NCBI GenBank assembly: GCA_004524565.1
Contig: SDNZ01000003.1
Coordinates: 1-62,734, forward strand
Direction of reading: 5' to 3'
Origin: Candidatus Thorarchaeota archaeon
GTDB taxonomy: Archaea; Asgardarchaeota; Thorarchaeia; Thorarchaeales; Thorarchaeaceae
DNA length: 62,734 bases
In this document: piece after piece, positions 20,948 to 28,439 of the stretch
How the letters are laid out: each line of letters opens with the position of its first letter
How positions within the stretch are numbered: position 1 is the stretch's first letter
Notes under the pieces: generated by a model
The model's input: only the letters and a program-made list of their open reading frames with translations
Databases searched by the model: none
What the model was told of the DNA's origin: nothing
Position numbers and translations under genes: made by a program

Positions 20948-21089
20948 GGCATATCACCTGGAATGATAGAGAGGTATTCCAAGTATGGTGTCTATAATCC
21001 TTTCTCTGGAGTTGTAAAATCTAAAATTTGTACCGTTGACAAAATATAATACGACGTGCAATTATTTGAAGATTCCAGAAGTGTTTCAC

Positions 21090-21956
21090 ATGAGAGCTAG
21101 GTCTGTCGGATACTCGATTTACATGGTCCTTTCTATTATGGCTAGTCTGACAATTGCAGCCATTCCTGCCATTCTATTCTTTGGATGGTTCCTATTGCAT
21201 TTCACTAACTTCTTGAATAGCATAGGCTTTCCATTTTCTACATTGTATGATTGGGCATTGCCTCTTTTATCCGGAACTTTTGACCCTATTGTAATCCAAT
21301 ATTTCTGGGTCTTTGTACTCTTTGTTCCTGTTGGTCTGACATGTTATGCAATTTTCTTAGGAAGCCTCCTTGGATTATTCAAACTCTCACGAAGAGGTAT
21401 TCCTTTCCTCGAAGATGGTTACTACTCCTCAGACACTGAGGCATGGTTACTTTACGAATACTATGAAATTTACTATGTTCTATTTCCATATTTTGCTGGA
21501 TTCTTCTCAGTGTTCCTTGATACAAAACCAAGACATCAAGCATTTGGTTGCAAGATTGGCAATAACACAGTTGTTGGTAATGGAAGACTGTTCAATCCTG
21601 AACGAACTATCATTGGGGATAATTGTTTCTTTGGCTATGACGCGATTTTAAGTGGTCATGTATATGAGAGCGGTCGACTATACCTCAAGACTGTAAAACT
21701 CGGTAACAACGTCACTGTCGGTGCCAATGCAGTAGTTTTACCTGGAGCTGATATTGGTGACAATGTTATTGTTGGTGCTAACACAGTAGTGCCAAAAGAC
21801 ACAACCATTCCTTCAAACACAATCTGGGTTCATGGGAAAGCAATCCCGCGAAAGTCAAAGCCTGTAGCTGAAAAGCTTCATCAACCCATTGGTGGCCCCC
21901 CTCCTCTGGATCCTGAAGATGAAGCAGATATTCCTGAGAATGGAGAACGACTATAA
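21090..21956 (+). CDS. Membrane-bound left-handed beta-helix acyltransferase-like protein
   Basis: Two to three N-terminal TM segments, then hexapeptide repeats (GCKIGNNTVV, IIGDNCFFG, VGANAVVLPG). Start set at ATG 21090. Confidence 0.75.
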   Translation: MRARSVGYSIYMVLSIMASLTIAAIPAILFFGWFLLHFTNFLNSIGFPFSTLYDWALPLLSGTFDPIVIQYFWVFVLFVPVGLTCYAIFLGSLLGLFKLSRRGIPFLEDGYYSSDTEAWLLYEYYEIYYVLFPYFAGFFSVFLDTKPRHQAFGCKIGNNTVVGNGRLFNPERTIIGDNCFFGYDAILSGHVYESGRLYLKTVKLGNNVTVGANAVVLPGADIGDNVIVGANTVVPKDTTIPSNTIWVHGKAIPRKSKPVAEKLHQPIGGPPPLDPEDEADIPENGERL

Positions 21957-24025: not shown

Positions 24026-24077
24026 CTCTGTCATTATGATTATAAGAGTTTCAGACTCGTTGAGAGATTGAAGTACA

Positions 24078-24524
24078 ATGACCGATGAATCTCAAACCTC
24101 AGTGGACCTACAATTTGGTCTGGGGACTGACATAGTTGAGATTCAGCGATTTAGAGCATTAGATAGAGATGCTCCGTTCTTCTCACGGGTATTCACACAC
24201 GATGAGTTGACCTATTGTCGGAAACATACAGATGCATCACCGCATTTTGCCGCTACATTCGCTGGAAAAGAATCTGTACTAAAAGCAATGAATTCGCGAA
24301 GGCAATTATCTATTTCAGAAATTGAGATCCTGAGAGATTCGGATGGAGCTCCGTATGTATGTGTTGAAGAGAATACAGATGTTGAAGTACTTGTGAGTCT
24401 AGCGCATTCTGAGCACTATGCAGTTGCTGTGGCAATAGTAATTCCGAAATCACAATCAAGTAATGTTGAGATGTTTCGTAAACTACTAAACGAAACCATC
24501 CATGATATCATACCCGGACAGTGA
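24078..24524 (+). CDS. acpS: Holo-ACP synthase (AcpS-type 4'-phosphopantetheinyl transferase)
   Basis: GLGTDIVEIQRF, FTHDELTY, FAGKESVLKA, GAP, VSLAH. Confidence 0.9.
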   Translation: MTDESQTSVDLQFGLGTDIVEIQRFRALDRDAPFFSRVFTHDELTYCRKHTDASPHFAATFAGKESVLKAMNSRRQLSISEIEILRDSDGAPYVCVEENTDVEVLVSLAHSEHYAVAVAIVIPKSQSSNVEMFRKLLNETIHDIIPGQ

Positions 24525-24530
24525 ACTACT

Positions 24531-26345
24531 ATGAATGAAATCCTCGAGTCCGTAAGGAAAGACCCCTCGTATCTCAGCCTATGGAGTGCATACAAGAAGA
24601 TACAAGATCTTGATCTTAAAGCTCCTGAGGATGACACGAATACTGTCCGTTTAGCTGTAATTGGCTCAACAACTCTAGAGCCATTGGCTGCCTGCGTTGA
24701 TATTAAGACTCGCCTTGAAGGATTTCATGTAGAGACCTTTGTTGGTGGTTTCAATACATACAGGCAGGAAATTCTGAACAAATCTTCAGACTTATACAAA
24801 GTCAAACGTGATGTTATAATTCTCTCAATTGATGCATGGTCTATTTTAGATAAGATGTTCCTGTCGAACTTCGTAAGAATGAGTGAAAAGGATCGTCAAG
24901 CAACTCAGAAAGAACTTGTAGAAGATATTCTCTCTATTGTATCCAATTTGGAATCTACTACCTCCGCGCTTGTCCTTGTTAACAATTTAGTAGTTCCTGT
25001 TTTCACCCCTCTTGGTGTAGTAGATAATAAGCAGAAGATTGGTCTGAGACGATTTTTTGAAGGAGCTAATATTCTGCTGGCTGAGAAACTTGAGAAGAAC
25101 TCACGAATATTTCTTGTTGATCTAGATGCCGTAGCTGGTGCTTTTGGAAAAACACGAATCACAAACTGGAACACGTGGTATCGTGGATCGATTCCCTTCA
25201 GTGATGAATTCACTCCAATTCTTGCGGACGAATACGTCAGATATATTCGGGCTATGAAAGGACGTACGAAAAAGTGCATTGTAGTGGATTTGGACAATAC
25301 ACTATGGGGCGGTATCATTGGAGAAGATGGTATCGAAGGGATCAAATTAGGAAATACATCTCCTGGTATCGAATATGTTGAATTCCAGAGAAGTTTACTT
25401 AGTCTTTACAATCGGGGTATCATTCTTGCAGTCTGTAGTAAGAACAATCCCGATGATGCTCTCAGAGTCTTTCGAGAACATCCATCCCAGGTGTTGAAGG
25501 AAGACCATTTTGCTGCGATGAGGATCAATTGGCAGAACAAAGCTGCAAACATCGAAGAACTAGCGAAAGAGATCAATATAGGCCTCGATAGTATGGTCTT
25601 CTTGGATGATAATCCTGTAGAACGTGCTCAAGTTTCACAGGTTCATCCCGAAATACTGGTTGTTGACATGCCTAAGAATCCACGACTCTATCGAGAAATG
25701 ATTGAAAGTCTCAATGTATTCGATGTACTGTCTATAACAAGTGAAGATATAGCTCGCGGAGAGATGTATGTAGGTAAACGAAAGCGTACCGAACTTGAGC
25801 GGAGTGCGACATCAATAGAAGATTTCCTACGAACTCTTGATCTCAAAGTTCGTATCAAGGAAGTAAGTGATTTTGATACCCCTCGTGTAGTTCAGTTGAT
25901 TGGTAAAACCAACCAGTTCAATCTCACAACTCGACGATACTCTGATGTTGAAGTGAGTAATTATAGGAAATCCTCAGATGCCGCAGTCTATAGTATGACA
26001 GTTCACGATAAATTTGGAGATGAAGGAGTCGTTGGAGTGGCCATCGTGAAAAAGAAGGGAGGCGATTGGTGGATTGATTCTCTTTTAATGAGTTGTAGAG
26101 TGATAGGGCGGTCCGTTGAAACTGCCTTTCTAGCAAAGATTGTTGCTGATGCGAGGAAGGCAAAAGCTACACGAATTATCGGAGAATATGTTCCAACGAA
26201 GAAGAATCCTCCTGCTGCTGATCTTTATGAAAGACATGGATTTGGTATGCCTACAACATCTGATGCCGGCGTGACAAGCTGGATTTTGAATCTTGATGAA
26301 CAGACCATAGATGTACCTGAATGGATTGAATTAATCGAGGAATAA
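24531..26345 (+). CDS. fkbH: FkbH-like HAD-IIIC glyceryl transferase/phosphatase with C-terminal acyltransferase domain
   Basis: VDLDNTLWGG, CSKN, INWQNKA, FLDDNPVE, KTNQFNLTT, DKFGDEG, LMSCRVIGR. Confidence 0.92.
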   Translation: MNEILESVRKDPSYLSLWSAYKKIQDLDLKAPEDDTNTVRLAVIGSTTLEPLAACVDIKTRLEGFHVETFVGGFNTYRQEILNKSSDLYKVKRDVIILSIDAWSILDKMFLSNFVRMSEKDRQATQKELVEDILSIVSNLESTTSALVLVNNLVVPVFTPLGVVDNKQKIGLRRFFEGANILLAEKLEKNSRIFLVDLDAVAGAFGKTRITNWNTWYRGSIPFSDEFTPILADEYVRYIRAMKGRTKKCIVVDLDNTLWGGIIGEDGIEGIKLGNTSPGIEYVEFQRSLLSLYNRGIILAVCSKNNPDDALRVFREHPSQVLKEDHFAAMRINWQNKAANIEELAKEINIGLDSMVFLDDNPVERAQVSQVHPEILVVDMPKNPRLYREMIESLNVFDVLSITSEDIARGEMYVGKRKRTELERSATSIEDFLRTLDLKVRIKEVSDFDTPRVVQLIGKTNQFNLTTRRYSDVEVSNYRKSSDAAVYSMTVHDKFGDEGVVGVAIVKKKGGDWWIDSLLMSCRVIGRSVETAFLAKIVADARKAKATRIIGEYVPTKKNPPAADLYERHGFGMPTTSDAGVTSWILNLDEQTIDVPEWIELIEE

Positions 26346-26347
26346 CA

Positions 26348-26587
26348 ATGACTGACTTTGACAATAAGCTTCTAGATATACTCTCACGGGTTTTCCGAAT
26401 CGACCAAGGGGAAATCACAGATAATTTGAAACGAAAAGATTTCGAACCCTGGGACTCCATGGCGCATCTCATGCTTATCAGTGAGATTGAGAACGAATTT
26501 GAGATCTTCTTTGAAGATGAGGAAGTTGTCGATATTTGGACCGTTGGAGATCTCAAGAAGATATTGAACCAGAAGATGTCTCCTTAA
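26348..26587 (+). CDS. Acyl carrier protein
   Basis: Acidic 79-aa protein with WDSMAHLMLISEIENEF (phosphopantetheine Ser); directly after fkbH. Confidence 0.9.
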   Translation: MTDFDNKLLDILSRVFRIDQGEITDNLKRKDFEPWDSMAHLMLISEIENEFEIFFEDEEVVDIWTVGDLKKILNQKMSP

Positions 26588-27030
26588 TCCTTCTGGGGCT
26601 CCAATTTCTGGACCATTCTAGCAGGATTACCTGCAAACAGTGTTAATGGTGGAACGTCTTTACTTACAACTGCTCCGGCTGCAATGATAGCACCTTCACC
26701 TATTGTCACACCTGGAAGGATAGTAGAACCTGCGGCAAGCCATGCACCTTTCCCAATGACTACTTTCTTGGGTCCTTCATGGAATATCCTTCTGCGCTGA
26801 TGATATGGGCTTGCCCCTGAATGTGCCATTATCTTGACTCCTGGACCAATGCTCGCCCAGTCGTGGATTTCTATATACTCCGGGTATTCTCCATCCATCA
26901 TTACAAGGAATCCCATGTATACACCTTTTCCTACTTTAATCCCACATTTTCTATACACACTAGCGCGAAATTGATAGGATGGTGCAATCCAAGCTAGAAT
27001 TCTCAGGAACCTTCCAAGAAACTTACCCAC
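26584..27030 (-). CDS. Hexapeptide-repeat O-acyltransferase
   Basis: GIKVGKGV, VVIGKGAWLAAGSTILPGVTIGEGAIIAAGAVV, GNPAR. Confidence 0.85.
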   Translation of the reverse strand: MGKFLGRFLRILAWIAPSYQFRASVYRKCGIKVGKGVYMGFLVMMDGEYPEYIEIHDWASIGPGVKIMAHSGASPYHQRRRIFHEGPKKVVIGKGAWLAAGSTILPGVTIGEGAIIAAGAVVSKDVPPLTLFAGNPARMVQKLEPQKD

Positions 27031-27052
27031 TTTTTATCTCTCCATATACTCA

Positions 27053-27925
27053 TTACATCTGTCTCTTCCATAATACTCTTCTTAGATAGTCTGAGAACAC
27101 CCAGTTATCGATATCACCAGTTAGCAACAAGCAGAATGAGCTATCACCCTTCCACGTGTTATGTGAATTCCAATACTTGACTGCCTCACTGGGTGTAGGA
27201 CACCATGCTCCTAATCCATGTGCATATTCAACAACTTCGCGAAGACATATTGCAAATTCAGGCTGTCCCATTCTGATAGGATGAAGATCAAACATAATCA
27301 CTCCACCTTTCTTGGAGGCATCTAACACTGTTTCATTCAATGTCTTTGTCACAGATTTAGGTGCCATCCCCTTACTATCGATCATAAGATCATCACTCCA
27401 AATATTGAGGGGTATGTACGTGACTTTGGAAGGAGTACCATCCAGATCAACCCTAAAGAAATGTGTTCTATCCCTGTGCTCTGCCTGATACCCAAATCCT
27501 CCGTCCCACATGAGACCATATTTCTCAAGTATTACTGGCATATCTGGTGTATAGTTATCATATGGTGCTCTAAATCCTTCAATTTTGATTCCAAGTTTTT
27601 TATACACTTGAAGACTGAGTGCGAAATCTTTCTCTCTAGCCTTTGGACTGAGTGTCGGATATCTAACATGGTTGTATCCATGTGAGGCAACTTCATGCCC
27701 TCGTTCTACAATTTCACGGACGAGATCAGGACGCATTTTCGCAATTGCTGCTATTGTTGGAAATGCAAATTTTCCGTCTACATCTTCAAGTGCTTCAAAC
27801 ATATTTCGCAAGATTGTACTGAAAGAGGTTCTATGGAGTCGCATCATATGATATAGCTGTTTTGGAGCCCTCGTTCCCCATCTTTTCGAGAGCTGCCCTA
27901 GATATCCCAAACGCGACACAATCAA
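27053..27925 (-). CDS. Polysaccharide deacetylase (CE4/NodB-like)
   Basis: ATFP-like FAFPT, HEVASHGYNH, GFRAPY, DLHP. Confidence 0.82.
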   Translation of the reverse strand: MIVSRLGYLGQLSKRWGTRAPKQLYHMMRLHRTSFSTILRNMFEALEDVDGKFAFPTIAAIAKMRPDLVREIVERGHEVASHGYNHVRYPTLSPKAREKDFALSLQVYKKLGIKIEGFRAPYDNYTPDMPVILEKYGLMWDGGFGYQAEHRDRTHFFRVDLDGTPSKVTYIPLNIWSDDLMIDSKGMAPKSVTKTLNETVLDASKKGGVIMFDLHPIRMGQPEFAICLREVVEYAHGLGAWCPTPSEAVKYWNSHNTWKGDSSFCLLLTGDIDNWVFSDYLRRVLWKRQM

Positions 27926-28028
27926 AGCCTCAACTAATTATCTGGTCCTGTTCGTAATGTGTTTCTTTCATAAGACTTGTGGGCAACCTAATGGTAAGAC
28001 TTATGCTGTTGCCAGTAAGTCTTCTCGT

Positions 28029-28439
28029 ATGAAACTCAGTCACGTTGGTATAATTGTGAAAGATATCGCGGAAGGAATCAAGAATCATGAGGCTCTCTAT
28101 GGATACAAACAGCTCAGCGATATAGTAGAAGATACAACGCAGAAGGTGCGTGTTGTAATCATGGGGCACTCTGAGAACGATCCCGTGAAGATTGAGCTCA
28201 TATCACCACTCGGGGAGGATTCTCCAGTAACTGAACTTCTGAATAAACGACAGGCGATATACCATCTCTGCTACGAAGTTACAGATATTGAAGAGGCAAA
28301 GAATAAAGCTCGAAAGAATGGAGCTATCGTGATTAGTAAACCAGTTAAAGCTCCACTCTTCGATGATAGGAAGATATGTTTCCTTTTTACAAAGGATCAT
28401 TACGTGATTGAGTTAGTCGAAAGTGGTTATAACCACTAG
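28029..28439 (+). CDS. VOC/glyoxalase family protein (methylmalonyl-CoA epimerase-like)
   Basis: LSHVGIIV, IELISP, YHLCYEV, IELVE metal ligands. Start set at ATG 28029. Confidence 0.85.
   Translation: MKLSHVGIIVKDIAEGIKNHEALYGYKQLSDIVEDTTQKVRVVIMGHSENDPVKIELISPLGEDSPVTELLNKRQAIYHLCYEVTDIEEAKNKARKNGAIVISKPVKAPLFDDRKICFLFTKDHYVIELVESGYNH

What the first reader, a model, noticed from the sequence alone, without database searches (positions are those of the whole stretch)
24078..28439. Complete ACP-loading module (AcpS-FkbH-ACP) in an archaeon
Seen: co-oriented acpS, fkbH and ACP (gaps 6 and 2 nt) with intact active sites, next to an O-acyltransferase, a CE4 deacetylase and a VOC protein. Known: archaea generally lack ACP and AcpS; FkbH enzymes load a glyceryl group from 1,3-bisphosphoglycerate onto ACP; bacterial fkbH-ACP-VOC loci usually lie in surface-glycan clusters with an MBOAT. 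Inference: a horizontally acquired glyceryl-ACP pathway that tailors S-layer glycans or lipids, with no PKS, FAS or MBOAT in the window, so the acceptor step may be new.
Basis: partly seen in the sequence, partly recalled or inferred. Interest (0 to 1): 0.75.

Follow-up and report, generated by a model that had tools for sequence, protein, structure and literature searches.

The report
Archaeal carrier-protein sugar-acylation gene cassette
A Thorarchaeota (Asgard archaeon) genome carries a conserved six-gene unit with its own acyl carrier protein and activating enzyme, which most likely replaces the acetyl group of an amino sugar in protein-linked glycans with a three-carbon glycerate-derived group; I found no published description of this route in archaea.

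Summary
AcpS (24078-24524), FkbH (24531-26345) and ACP (26348-26587) are co-oriented with 6- and 2-nt gaps and keep their catalytic motifs. A hexapeptide (LbH) acyltransferase, a CE4 deacetylase and a VOC protein follow.

It is not contamination. The locus sits in the same chromosomal slot in 9 of 16 genera of the window's Thorarchaeota family.

The six genes are one unit:
- Two congeners lack exactly these six genes, and a third keeps only a decayed remnant.
- The same six families cluster, rearranged and with unrelated flanks, in other Asgard families, Kariarchaeaceae and Bathyarchaeia.
- In at least four of those arrangements they lie within two genes of the N-glycosylation enzyme AglB (STT3).

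MBOAT, ketosynthase, and any second ACP or PPTase are absent from the genome.

Best reading (about 0.5):
- AcpS activates ACP.
- FkbH loads glyceryl from 1,3-bisphosphoglycerate.
- CE4 removes an N-acetyl group from a glycan precursor.
- LbH transfers the C3 acyl from ACP onto the freed amine.
- VOC is an optional tailoring step.

This follows NodB/NodA/NodF or LpxC/LpxD logic. The acceptor and the ACP dependence of the LbH enzyme are inferred.

This scan had already flagged the same cassette in Bathyarchaeia. It is a new variant of a known kind.

The parts
24078..24524 (+). AcpS-type 4'-phosphopantetheinyl transferase (148 aa), the only PPTase in the genome
   Evidence: PF01648 scores 61.6 bits and TIGR00516 scores 66.7 bits, above its cut-off. 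It is the single PF01648 hit in the own genome. The motifs GxD, KE..K and H are conserved in orthologues. In the Thor family an AcpS hit occurs only next to FkbH. A TATA-like TTATAA lies at 24040-24045, 32 nt before the ATG (read output; inference).
24531..26345 (+). FkbH-type loader (604 aa): N-terminal domain, HAD-IIIC phosphatase domain and a C-terminal GNAT-like domain with a conserved Cys
   Evidence: TIGR01686 scores 319.8 bits (cut-off 146.65) and also matches PF21211 FkbH_N. PDB 3SLR matches at 7e-55 over residues 38-403. DLDNT, SKNN, DDNP and the Cys of MSCRVIGR are invariant or conservatively kept in Thor, other Asgard, Bathyarchaeia, Nitrospirota and Woesearchaeota homologues.
26348..26587 (+). 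Dedicated acyl carrier protein (79 aa), the only ACP-like gene in the genome
   Evidence: PP-binding scores 19.0 bits (below cut-off) and NF002150 scores 30.8 bits. The best PDB hits are ACPs (2LML at 2.4e-6). The WDS(M/L) serine motif is conserved. It is the best of only three weak PF00550 hits in the genome.
26584..27030 (-). Short left-handed beta-helix (hexapeptide) acyltransferase (148 aa), proposed to transfer the acyl group from ACP to the acceptor
   Evidence: Hexapep scores 51.4 bits. The nearest solved relatives are galactoside and maltose O-acetyltransferases (3e-18), then sugar N-acetyltransferases. It is the best conserved protein of the cassette: 85-97% identity within the genus, 55-62% to other Asgard families and 69-70% to Bathyarchaeia. 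It always lies in the cassette. It has a conserved amphipathic N-terminus (hydrophobic moment 0.67).
27053..27925 (-). Cytoplasmic CE4 (NodB-fold) deacetylase (290 aa) of a small subfamily with the Asp motif on the C-terminal strand
   Evidence: PF01522 scores 52.2 bits. The AlphaFold model has pLDDT 91.7. Foldseek's best matches are PuuE-type and 'polysaccharide deacetylase' entries (TM 0.65-0.68), with ArnD at rank 17. Invariant residues are H82, H86, R119-P121-Y122, D178, D179, D183, H215, D271 and D273. Of 1.84 billion representatives, only 5 clusters match at E<=1e-30 and 74 at 1e-10. All ten distant members I read end in (T/S)GD(I/V/L)D.
27957..28439 (+). VOC / glyoxalase-I-like metalloprotein (probable true start 28029, 136 aa), an optional member of the cassette
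   Evidence: Glyoxalase_4 scores 80.9 bits. TIGR03081 (methylmalonyl-CoA epimerase) scores 71.6 bits, below its cut-off. The best PDB matches are the Clostridium acetobutylicum glyoxalase I entries 2QH0 and 3HDP at 1e-22. It is present in the cassettes of f18, f20, Bathyarchaeia, L058, L061 and Woesearchaeota. It is absent from L004, L016, L017, L050, L051, L049 and L060.

Best explanation
The six genes form one self-contained, carrier-protein-dependent acyl-tailoring cassette.

Proposed steps:
1. AcpS converts apo-ACP to holo-ACP using CoA.
2. FkbH takes a glyceryl unit from 1,3-bisphosphoglycerate. It holds it on the conserved Cys, dephosphorylates it with its HAD domain, and passes it to holo-ACP as glyceryl-S-ACP.
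3. Where present, the VOC protein acts on this 2-hydroxyacyl thioester through a metal-bound enediolate. The outcome could be epimerisation at C2 or dehydration to pyruvoyl.
4. The cytoplasmic CE4 enzyme removes an acetyl group, most likely the N-acetyl of a HexNAc, from a nucleotide- or dolichol-linked glycan precursor.
5. The LbH acyltransferase moves the C3 acyl group from ACP onto the exposed amine, giving an N-glyceroyl-type amino sugar.
6. AglB then transfers the finished glycan to surface proteins.

Shown: the gene families, intact motifs, the unit character of the six genes, their distribution, and their linkage to AglB in relatives.

Inferred: the substrate of FkbH (by family), the role of the VOC, the use of acyl-ACP by the LbH enzyme, N- versus O-acylation, and the identity of the acceptor.
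For: Unit character:
- The congeners G001 and G013 have the helicase gene directly beside the 306-aa gene. All six genes are missing and the flanks are intact.
- G015 keeps a truncated AcpS fused against a truncated CE4, plus the VOC.
- The same six families cluster in other orders and with unrelated flanks in Asgard f18 and f20, Bathyarchaeia, Kariarchaeaceae and two further lineages.
- CE4->LbH converging on AcpS->FkbH->ACP is the recurring core arrangement.

Private cofactor system:
- The genome has one PPTase, one ACP, no MBOAT and no true KS.
- In the Thor family, AcpS occurs only next to FkbH and is absent where the cassette is absent.

Loader:
- FkbH scores 320 bits with all motifs intact.

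Glycan link:
- STT3/AglB lies within two genes of the cassette in f18 (four genomes), Bathyarchaeia (two to three lineages), Kariarchaeaceae and L061, in four different arrangements.
- UDP-sugar dehydrogenase, GFO/IDH/MocA, GT4, GT2 and GlcNAc-1-P-transferase-family genes flank it in L061 and L058.

Chemical precedent:
- N-glyceroyl sugars exist on S-layer glycoproteins (Pse5Am7Gra). Their genetic basis was called unknown (PMC5378307).
- A C. jejuni strain whose fkbH-domain gene cj1302 is a pseudogene lacks dimethylglyceroyl-Pse (PMC7099621).

CE4 and LbH:
- The CE4 looks catalytically complete and belongs to a very small clade.
- LbH is the most constrained protein of the set.
- No TM segment is evident in any of the six proteins: the highest 19-residue hydropathy peaks fall in segments of soluble-fold families.
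Against: - No biochemical data exist for any member.
- The nearest solved relatives of the LbH enzyme all use acetyl-CoA. Nothing here shows that it accepts acyl-ACP.
- CE4 enzymes also remove O-acetyl groups, so the N-acyl swap is one of several readings.
- In the window's own genome the cassette is not next to AglB, which lies on contig C95. It sits among housekeeping genes.
- The sugar genes that flank the cassette in L061 have no close orthologues in this genome, so no acceptor can be named.
- The VOC is dispensable in many cassettes and survives in G015 without the rest, so its tie to the pathway is looser.
- The idea of pairing CE4 with LbH came first from an earlier AI note. It is not independent evidence.
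Confidence: 0.5

Rival explanations
1. The two halves are only loosely coupled. LbH is an ordinary acetyl-CoA-dependent O-acetyltransferase. CE4 is its counterpart esterase on the same sugar. The glyceryl-ACP is consumed by another route, for example direct transfer by the GNAT-like C-terminal domain of FkbH or by an unlinked enzyme.
For: The nearest solved LbH relatives are CoA-dependent galactoside and maltose O-acetyltransferases. FkbH has a weak GNAT match at residues 493-571. CE4 enzymes include O-acetyl esterases (acetylxylan esterases among the matches).
Against: The LbH and CE4 genes are lost together with AcpS-FkbH-ACP. They stay with them through every rearrangement seen, across two phyla. 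The close LbH relatives whose loci I read (two Bathyarchaeia-named, two unnamed) and all orthologues in the fetched loci lie inside such cassettes. No other candidate transferase is conserved with the cassette.
Confidence: 0.17
2. The cassette decorates a membrane lipid rather than a protein glycan. Examples would be acylation of a polyprenyl-glycerol or glycolipid head group, in the manner of Bacillus YvoF.
For: The best NCBIfam hit of LbH is the heptaprenylglyceryl-phosphate O-acetyltransferase family, at 83.6 bits against a cut-off of 300. A geranylgeranyl reductase gene lies 3 kb away. LbH has an amphipathic N-terminus.
Against: The reductase and the other flanks stay in place when the cassette is deleted, and they are absent from the cassette's surroundings in other lineages. 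The recurrent neighbour is AglB, not a lipid-synthesis gene. The NCBIfam score is far below its cut-off. A dolichol-linked glycan would also explain the membrane-seeking helix.
Confidence: 0.1
3. The cassette makes a soluble small molecule rather than a glycan decoration. Examples would be an N-acyl amino sugar used as a solute, a cofactor or a low-molecular-weight-thiol-like compound, built by the same deacetylate-then-acylate logic as mycothiol or bacillithiol synthesis.
For: In Thorarchaeota, f20 and L058 the cassette is not adjacent to AglB. No glycosyltransferase is part of the conserved unit. A glyoxalase-I-like protein is associated with it.
Against: AglB adjacency recurs in four arrangements. 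No ligase or thiol-donor gene is conserved with the cassette.
Confidence: 0.1
4. FkbH loads an acyl group other than glyceryl, such as lactyl, glycolyl or phosphoglyceryl. The product would then not be glycerate-derived in the simple sense.
For: Identity to the nearest solved homologue is moderate, and none of this clade has been characterised. The VOC resembles an enzyme that forms S-lactoyl thioesters.
Against: The match to the FkbH domain model is full-length, with all HAD motifs and the Cys conserved. All characterised FkbH-type enzymes cited use 1,3-bisphosphoglycerate.
Confidence: 0.08
5. The segment is bacterial contamination or a mis-binned contig.
For: ACP, AcpS and FkbH are bacterial-type families. 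The assembly is a MAG with 4% estimated contamination.
Against: The cassette lies inside a 62.7-kb contig between archaeal genes (ThrRS editing domain, TrmB-like regulators, geranylgeranyl reductase). GC content is unchanged across it. The same genes occupy the same slot in more than 30 independently assembled Thorarchaeota genomes of 9 genera.
Confidence: 0.01

Closest known systems
FkbH/ACP glyceryl-ACP loading pairs of methoxymalonyl-ACP and tetronate pathways (FK520 FkbH/FkbJ; tetromadurin Mad14/Mad12 and Mad7/Mad8; OzmB)
   Same: It has an FkbH-domain enzyme with HAD-IIIC motifs and a conserved Cys. A stand-alone ACP is encoded immediately downstream. The expected product is glyceryl-S-ACP from 1,3-bisphosphoglycerate.
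   Different: There is no PKS, no FabH-like tetronate enzyme, and no FkbI/FkbK dehydrogenases or FkbG methyltransferase. There is no ketosynthase anywhere in the genome. The host is an archaeon. The outlet is an LbH acyltransferase plus a CE4 deacetylase, and a private AcpS is part of the unit.
The same six-gene cassette in Bathyarchaeia next to aglB
   Same: The same six families occur, with the same core arrangement: CE4->LbH converging on AcpS->FkbH->ACP. LbH is 69-70% identical and FkbH 49% identical.
   Different: In Thorarchaeota the VOC is inverted or absent. The cassette sits between a helicase-like gene and a 306-aa gene of unknown function, not beside AglB.
Nod-factor N-acyl replacement: NodB (CE4 de-N-acetylase), NodA (N-acyltransferase), NodF (dedicated ACP). 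This comparison rests on established knowledge; the system was not retrieved or tested here.
   Same: The logic is the same. A cytoplasmic CE4 enzyme frees an amine on a GlcNAc residue. An acyl group carried by a dedicated ACP is then put on it.
   Different: The transferase is an LbH protein, not NodA. The acyl group is a C3 hydroxy-acid made by FkbH, not a fatty acid made by NodE/FAS. The CE4 belongs to a different subfamily, with the Asp motif on its C-terminal strand.
LpxC/LpxD steps of lipid A synthesis. This comparison rests on established knowledge.
   Same: A sugar is deacetylated and then N-acylated by a left-handed beta-helix enzyme that takes its acyl group from acyl-ACP. This shows that the fold can use ACP donors.
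   Different: The LbH here belongs to the galactoside/maltose acetyltransferase-like branch, not LpxD. The deacetylase is CE4, not LpxC. The acyl group is C3.
Glyceroyl-decorated nonulosonic acids of bacterial surface glycoproteins: Tannerella forsythia Pse5Am7Gra, and the Campylobacter jejuni dimethylglyceroyl-Pse locus with the fkbH-domain gene cj1302
   Same: A glycerate-derived N-acyl group sits on a sugar of a surface glycoprotein. An FkbH-domain gene lies in the glycosylation locus, and its loss goes with loss of the modification.
   Different: These are bacterial O-glycosylation systems on nonulosonic acids. The transfer enzymes are not established, and no CE4/LbH/AcpS unit has been described for them.
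Dlt-type and FkbH-ACP-MBOAT envelope acylation (Woesearchaeota locus L023)
   Same: A dedicated carrier protein delivers a small acyl group for envelope decoration. In L023, FkbH, ACP, VOC and AcpS are clustered in an archaeon.
   Different: L023 uses a membrane MBOAT as outlet and lies among sugar genes. The Thor-type cassette has no MBOAT in the locus, the genome or the family. It uses soluble LbH and CE4 proteins, which implies acylation on the cytoplasmic side.

Membership tests
FkbH-type glyceryl transferase/phosphatase | Full-length match to the FkbH domain model above its curated cut-off | tested here: met
   TIGR01686 scores 319.8 bits against a cut-off of 146.65, covering model positions 2-320 of 323. 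PF21211 FkbH_N scores 39.7 bits against 27.
FkbH-type glyceryl transferase/phosphatase | HAD-IIIC catalytic motifs (DxDx(T/V), S/T, K, DD) | tested here: met
   VVDLDNTLWGG, CSKNN and FLDDNP are conserved in all 13 aligned homologues.
FkbH-type glyceryl transferase/phosphatase | Conserved Cys of the C-terminal domain, taken from memory of the OzmB work to be the acyl-enzyme site | tested here: met
   The Cys in LLMSCRVIGR is invariant across Thor, f18, f20, Bathyarchaeia, Nitrospirota and Woesearchaeota. Its catalytic role was not tested.
FkbH-type glyceryl transferase/phosphatase | Uses 1,3-bisphosphoglycerate and yields glyceryl-S-ACP | not testable with these tools
   Inferred from family membership and from PMC7489565.
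AcpS-type holo-ACP synthase | Match above the cut-off of the equivalog-domain model, small single-domain size, conserved Asp/Glu/Lys | tested here: met
   TIGR00516 scores 66.7 bits against 59.8. The protein is 148 aa. GTDIVE, FAGKESVLKA and SLAHS are conserved.
Acyl carrier protein | Four-helix carrier fold signature with the D-S-(L/M) phosphopantetheine serine | tested here: inconclusive
   The Pfam score of 19.0 is below the 20.8 cut-off, and the NCBIfam score of 30.8 is below 66. However, the top PDB hits are ACPs (2LML at 2.4e-6). The WDS motif is conserved in 12 of 13 orthologues. Phosphopantetheinylation was not tested.
Methoxymalonyl-ACP pathway (FkbG-K) | FkbI and FkbK dehydrogenases and the FkbG O-methyltransferase beside FkbH/FkbJ | tested here: not met
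   None of the six cassette proteins or the immediate flanks match acyl-CoA dehydrogenase, 3-hydroxyacyl-CoA dehydrogenase or methyltransferase families.
Tetronate 'glycerate utilisation' operon / PKS | FabH-like condensing enzyme or any ketosynthase partner | tested here: not met
   PF00109 gives only three partial hits (model positions about 163-222) in roughly 400-aa ORFs of the genome. I read these as thiolase-like cross-hits. The same search also rings in all four archaeal control genomes.
Dlt-like / MBOAT carrier-protein envelope acylation | Membrane-bound O-acyltransferase (MBOAT) partner | tested here: not met
   PF03062 is absent from the own genome. It is absent from 69 of 71 genomes of the family and from all 23 high-quality ones. 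No MBOAT occurs in any Thor, Asgard or Bathyarchaeia cassette locus read.
CE4 (NodB-fold) metal-dependent deacetylase | NodB fold with the His-His metal ligands, an Asp ligand and base, the RxPY motif and a catalytic His | tested here: met
   PF01522 scores 52.2 bits. The model has pLDDT 91.7, and CE4 structures match at TM 0.65-0.68. H82, H86, R119-P-Y122, D178/D179/D183 and H215 are invariant. The TFDD-like motif appears as T269-G-D271-I-D273 on the C-terminal strand. The geometry of that Asp pair was not measured.
Galactoside/maltose O-acetyltransferase-like LbH enzymes | Hexapeptide beta-helix with the catalytic His loop, and acetyl-CoA as donor | tested here: inconclusive
   The fold and the His loop (MAHSGAS) are present. 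The roughly 45-residue N-terminal acceptor domain of these enzymes is missing, since alignments start at chain residue about 74. The donor was not tested.
Glyoxalase I / methylmalonyl-CoA epimerase (VOC) | Paired beta-alpha-beta-beta-beta modules with H/E/H/E metal ligands, and a score above an equivalog cut-off | tested here: inconclusive
   The ligands are conserved (HVG, ELI, YH, IELVE). PDB 2QH0 and 3HDP match at 1e-22. TIGR03081 scores 71.6 bits against 114.95, and TIGR00068 scores 25.8 against 120. It is a member of the superfamily but is assigned to neither enzyme.

The most novel reading that the evidence does not exclude
Asgard archaea (Thorarchaeota, Kariarchaeaceae and others) and Bathyarchaeia may keep ACP and AcpS solely as a donor system for protein N-glycan tailoring. 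A galactoside-acetyltransferase-like beta-helix enzyme would have switched from acyl-CoA to acyl-ACP. It would work with a CE4 deacetylase that carries its Asp motif on the C-terminal strand, swapping the N-acetyl group of a lipid- or nucleotide-linked amino sugar for a glycolysis-derived glyceroyl (or VOC-modified) group. This would be the first carrier-protein-dependent step in archaeal protein glycosylation. It would also give a genetic route to N-glyceroyl sugars, whose basis is unknown in bacteria too.
Probability: 0.4. Interest if true: 0.75.

Novelty: new variant of a known kind. Interest (0 to 1): 0.62.

Why it matters
Archaea are generally thought to do without ACP chemistry. Here a complete, private ACP system (PPTase, loader, carrier, transferase) is inherited across a whole family of Asgard archaea. 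It recurs in other Asgard lineages and in Bathyarchaeia, repeatedly beside the oligosaccharyltransferase AglB.

If the model holds, three things follow:
- It defines a new way of decorating archaeal surface glycoproteins.
- It gives a candidate genetic basis for N-glyceroyl sugars, which was called an open problem for bacterial S-layer glycans (PMC5378307).
- It provides an LbH enzyme that may use acyl-ACP outside lipid A synthesis.

All six proteins are small and appear soluble, so every step can be tested by expression in E. coli and intact-protein mass spectrometry. Natural cassette-minus congeners (G001, G013) offer a built-in comparison.

The surprise is tempered in two ways. This scan has already met the cassette in Bathyarchaeia and many other FkbH-ACP modules. 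About a third of sampled Asgard genomes also carry some AcpS-type domain.

Tried and rejected
- **Contamination:** rejected by synteny in more than 30 Thorarchaeota genomes and by flat GC content.
- **Membrane-anchored LbH gene (21036-21956), geranylgeranyl reductase and helicase-like gene as module members:** rejected. They remain when the cassette is deleted and are not near it in other lineages.
- **MBOAT partner elsewhere in the genome or family:** not found.
- **KS/FAS/PKS partner:** only partial PF00109 hits that I read as thiolase-like.
- **Recent horizontal transfer:** no compositional signal.
- **FkbH tree:** it separates a Thor clade from Bathyarchaeia + (f18, f20) at 87/91 support. 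The base is unresolved and distorted by long branches. I therefore make no claim on donor or direction.
- **Empty site in G001/G013:** no cassette remnant or flanking repeat found.
- **Naming the acceptor from the sugar genes upstream of the cassette in L061:** failed. DUF354 and the UDP-sugar dehydrogenase have no close orthologue in this genome.
- **The FkbH paralogue class (31-36% identity, L052):** it has no ACP or AcpS beside it and was set aside.
- **Literature:** searches combining FkbH with MBOAT, polysaccharide, archaea, or Asgard/ACP gave no paper on such a system in archaea.
- **Tools:** A Bathyarchaeia-centred genome survey failed because 'of' needs a G handle, and I ran no further search on it.

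Full report
**Observation**

- AcpS 24078-24524 (+).
- FkbH 24531-26345 (+).
- ACP 26348-26587 (+).
- The gaps are 6 and 2 nt.
- A 148-aa hexapeptide (LbH) acyltransferase at 26584-27030 (-). Its stop overlaps the ACP stop by 4 nt.
- A 290-aa CE4 deacetylase at 27053-27925 (-), 22 nt upstream of LbH.
- A VOC protein at 27957-28439 (+).

Profile searches confirm the families:

| Protein | Model | Score (bits) | Cut-off |
|---|---|---|---|
| AcpS | TIGR00516 | 66.7 | 59.8 |
| FkbH | TIGR01686 | 319.8 | 146.65 |
| LbH | Hexapep | 51.4 | 27 |
| CE4 | Polysacc_deac_1 | 52.2 | 23.1 |
| VOC | Glyoxalase_4 | 80.9 | 27 |

The ACP falls just below the Pfam cut-off (19.0 vs 20.8 bits). Even so, the listed PDB matches with E up to 0.5 are all acyl carrier proteins. 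The best is 2LML at 2.4e-6, with its WDSLSH aligned to WDSMAH. FkbH matches the structural-genomics protein BF1531 of Bacteroides fragilis (3SLR) at 7e-55 over its N-terminal and HAD domains.

Alignments of orthologues show that the residues expected to matter are kept:
- FkbH: DLD(N/G)(T/V), SKNN, DD(N/S)P and an invariant Cys in SCR.
- ACP: the WDS(M/L) serine.
- AcpS: the Asp, Glu-Lys and His positions.
- LbH: the AHSG loop.
- VOC: the four metal ligands.

Orthologues start the VOC at the second Met, so its real start is probably 28029.

**Organism and contamination**

The window is contig C173 of a 3.13-Mb MAG, 86% complete. A search of species-representative genomes returned FkbH orthologues at 66-85% identity in at least 19 independently assembled Thorarchaeota or 'Promethearchaeota' MAGs.

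tblastn of the window's proteins against those loci shows one and the same gene order in them. The order is: TrmB-like regulators, geranylgeranyl reductase, a membrane LbH protein, the archaeal ThrRS editing domain, a helicase-like gene, AcpS, FkbH, ACP, LbH, CE4, (VOC), a 306-aa protein, and so on. GC content is flat across the cassette (0.41-0.43).

Across 400 genomes of the phylum, orthologues at 61% identity or more occur in 9 of the 16 sampled genera of the window's family. About two-thirds of the genomes of its genus have one. The two other genera I checked (L050, L051) hold the cassette in the same slot. The refutation by contamination therefore fails. Any horizontal origin predates the family.

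**The six genes are one unit**

Three lines of evidence support this.

First, natural deletions.
- In the congeners G001 and G013, the helicase-like gene is separated by only 160 bp from the 306-aa gene. All six genes are missing, and every flank gene on both sides is present.
- In G015, a 44-codon AcpS remnant abuts a 131-codon CE4 remnant, with the VOC still intact.
- The helicase of G001 and G013 is closer to the window's (80-81%) than those of many cassette-bearing genomes (64-77%). Absence is therefore secondary loss.
- The membrane LbH gene at 21036-21956 and the reductase stay behind, so they are not part of the unit.

Second, conservation through rearrangement.
- In Asgard family f18 the order is CE4, AcpS, FkbH, ACP (+), then VOC, LbH (-).
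- In f20 it is VOC, LbH (-), then CE4, AcpS, FkbH, ACP (+).
- Both have unrelated flanks.

Third, the closest relatives of the LbH protein outside Thorarchaeota lie in the same six-gene set.
- These relatives are 69-70% identical and are named Bathyarchaeota and Nitrososphaerota by NCBI.
- So do members from a Kariarchaeaceae MAG and two further lineages.
- The recurring core is CE4->LbH converging on AcpS->FkbH->ACP.
- The VOC is the loosest member. It is absent from several Thor genomes, one f18 genome and the Kariarchaeaceae locus, and it survives alone in G015.

**A private cofactor system**

The own genome has:
- one PPTase;
- one ACP-like gene;
- no MBOAT;
- only partial hits to the ketosynthase model, which I read as thiolase-like; the same search also rings in all four archaeal control genomes.

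MBOAT is absent from 69 of 71 genomes of the family. Within the family, every AcpS hit lies next to FkbH, and genomes without the cassette have none. ACP chemistry in these organisms therefore exists for this cassette alone.

The same search tempers the premise that archaea lack ACP. Of 400 Asgard genomes, 123 have an AcpS-type domain. In several other families it forms the C-terminus of a 3,200-3,800-aa megasynthase. One example is a 3,795-aa protein with NMO, KS, AT, ACP, KR, DH and PPTase domains in a closed genome. Earlier notes of this scan had already described that feature.

**What the cassette is linked to**

In Thorarchaeota the surroundings are housekeeping genes, and AglB lies on another contig. 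In relatives the oligosaccharyltransferase gene (STT3/AglB) is the recurrent neighbour:
- It is divergent from CE4 in all four f18 genomes.
- It is divergent from the VOC in two to three Bathyarchaeia lineages.
- It is next to LbH in Kariarchaeaceae.
- It is two small genes from AcpS in L061.

L061 also places a nucleotidyltransferase, DUF354, a UDP-sugar dehydrogenase and a GFO/IDH/MocA oxidoreductase co-directionally upstream, with GT4 and GT2 genes downstream. L058 has a GFO/IDH/MocA gene, a methyltransferase and a GlcNAc-1-P-transferase-family gene nearby.

Four different arrangements beside a gene that archaeal genomes carry in one to a few copies argue for a functional tie to N-glycan assembly. 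The particular sugar genes of L061 are not conserved in the window's genome, so the acceptor cannot be named.

**The individual enzymes**

CE4:
- It has a confident NodB-fold model (pLDDT 91.7).
- It superposes best on PuuE-type and unnamed 'polysaccharide deacetylase' structures (TM 0.65-0.68).
- ArnD, which acts on a lipid-linked sugar, is also among the matches.
- It keeps the two His, the RAPY motif, an Asp cluster and a His.
- The usual N-terminal TFDD motif is missing. An invariant LLTGDIDN instead forms the last beta-strand.
- All ten more distant relatives I read end in (T/S)GD(I/V/L)D. I read this as the Asp motif relocated to the C-terminus; the geometry was not measured.
- The clade is tiny. 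Of 1.84 billion representatives, 5 clusters match at E<=1e-30 and 74 at 1e-10.

LbH:
- It is most like galactoside and maltose O-acetyltransferases, and then sugar N-acetyltransferases.
- It lacks their N-terminal domain.
- It carries a conserved amphipathic N-terminus.
- It is the most conserved protein of the set.

VOC:
- It is closest to Clostridium acetobutylicum glyoxalase I (1e-22).
- It scores below the cut-offs of both glyoxalase I and methylmalonyl-CoA epimerase models.

No TM segment is evident in any of the six proteins. The highest 19-residue hydropathy peaks fall in segments of soluble-fold families.

**Mechanism proposed**

1. AcpS makes holo-ACP.
2. FkbH loads glyceryl from 1,3-bisphosphoglycerate, as FkbH-like enzymes do with stand-alone ACPs (PMC7489565).
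3. The VOC, where present, works on the 2-hydroxyacyl thioester. Glyoxalase I chemistry forms exactly such thioesters through an enediolate, so epimerisation or dehydration are the obvious outcomes.
4. CE4 frees an amine by de-N-acetylation of a cytoplasmic, nucleotide- or dolichol-linked sugar.
5. LbH transfers the C3 acyl group from ACP to it.
6. AglB later transfers the glycan.

This is the logic of NodB/NodA/NodF in Nod-factor synthesis and of LpxC/LpxD in lipid A synthesis (established knowledge, not tested here).

N-glyceroyl sugars are real. Pse5Am7Gra decorates Tannerella S-layer glycoproteins, and its genetic basis was called a major open question (PMC5378307). In Campylobacter jejuni, a strain whose fkbH-domain gene cj1302 is a pseudogene lacks the dimethylglyceroyl-pseudaminic acid (PMC7099621).

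Steps 1 and 2 rest on strong family evidence. Steps 3 to 5 are inference from gene association. The pairing of CE4 with LbH was first suggested to me by an earlier AI note. I then tested it only through co-loss and co-conservation.

**Comparison and novelty**

The loader pair is a member of the FkbH/ACP kind. The cassette is not a methoxymalonyl-ACP, tetronate, PKS or Dlt/MBOAT system, because the defining partners of each were sought and not found. A Woesearchaeota locus (39% FkbH identity) does use an MBOAT with FkbH, ACP, VOC and AcpS. The soluble LbH/CE4 outlet is therefore a distinct variant.

The nearest bacterial FkbH homologues (Nitrospirota, 44-45%) sit in polysaccharide loci without this outlet. 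The FkbH tree leaves the relations among the Thor, other-Asgard and Bathyarchaeia clades unresolved.

No paper in the held library connects FkbH with archaea. Within this scan, however, the same cassette beside aglB in Bathyarchaeia has already been followed up with the same reading (e1-2412164).

What this window adds:
- The cassette's family-wide, slot-stable presence in an Asgard lineage.
- Its presence in at least three more Asgard families.
- Natural deletion variants that delimit the unit.
- The dispensability of the VOC.
- The signature of the CE4 subfamily.

**Limits**

Taxon names for the anonymous handles f14, f18 and f20 are not known to me. No step has biochemical support.

Noticed in passing
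L062:88-11475 (G167:C1, closed 4.36-Mb Asgard genome of another family); hits listed: In 400 Asgard genomes, 123 carry an AcpS-type PPTase domain. Outside the Thor family, most of these are the C-terminal domain of a 3,200-3,800-aa ORF. The one I read has NMO, KS, AT, ACP(s), KR, PKS_DH and ACPS domains, so it is a type-I FAS/PUFA-synthase-like megasynthase with a built-in PPTase. It is not present in the window's genome. Earlier scan notes (e.g. e1-547189) describe this family.
   Followed up: partly
L039:5682-6742 (G015:C7): This is a decayed copy of the cassette in a congener. A 44-codon AcpS remnant is followed by a stop and abuts a 131-codon CE4 remnant. FkbH, ACP and LbH are deleted, while the VOC gene is intact.
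   Followed up: yes
L017:9831-10049: In one Thor-type MAG, on a contig with about 2x coverage, the ACP reads WDAM instead of WDSM. The phosphopantetheine serine is therefore replaced by Ala. This is either a sequencing error or a dead carrier.
   Followed up: no
window 21036-21956 (+): A 306-aa protein has an N-terminal half with several hydrophobic segments (maximum KD19 2.34) and a C-terminal hexapeptide-repeat domain. This layout recalls the membrane-embedded LbH domains of Pls-type synthetases. It is conserved in all relatives, including those without the cassette.
   Followed up: partly
L052:8835-10667 (G028:C38); also G002, G006, G014, G024, G110: A second class of FkbH-like proteins (31-36% identity, about 610 aa) occurs in several Asgard genomes, some of which also have the cassette. 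In the one locus I read, no ACP or AcpS lies beside it, and the neighbours have no Pfam match.
   Followed up: partly
G356:C369:1639-2334 and G356:C396: The only clear MBOAT in the Thor family sample lies in a genome that also has a divergent FkbH (37% identity). It may be a separate MBOAT-type FkbH system or contamination.
   Followed up: no
window 27053-27925 (-) and relatives P0241-P0284: This is a CE4 subfamily whose canonical N-terminal TFDD motif is missing. An invariant (T/S)GD(I/V/L)D sits on the last beta-strand, suggesting a circularly shifted placement of the catalytic Asp pair. About 74 clusters at 50% identity match at E<=1e-10.
   Followed up: partly
L023:6329-11674 (Woesearchaeota MAG): A DPANN archaeon clusters an MBOAT, an unknown 333-aa protein, FkbH, ACP, two methyltransferases, a VOC and AcpS beside UDP-glucose dehydrogenase and an epimerase. 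This is the MBOAT-outlet version of an FkbH-ACP system in an archaeon.
   Followed up: partly
window 24040-24045: A TTATAA box lies 32 nt upstream of the AcpS start codon. The surrounding motif ATTA(T/C)GATTATAAGAG is also present upstream of the AcpS remnant in G015. It is a likely archaeal promoter for the AcpS-FkbH-ACP operon.
   Followed up: no
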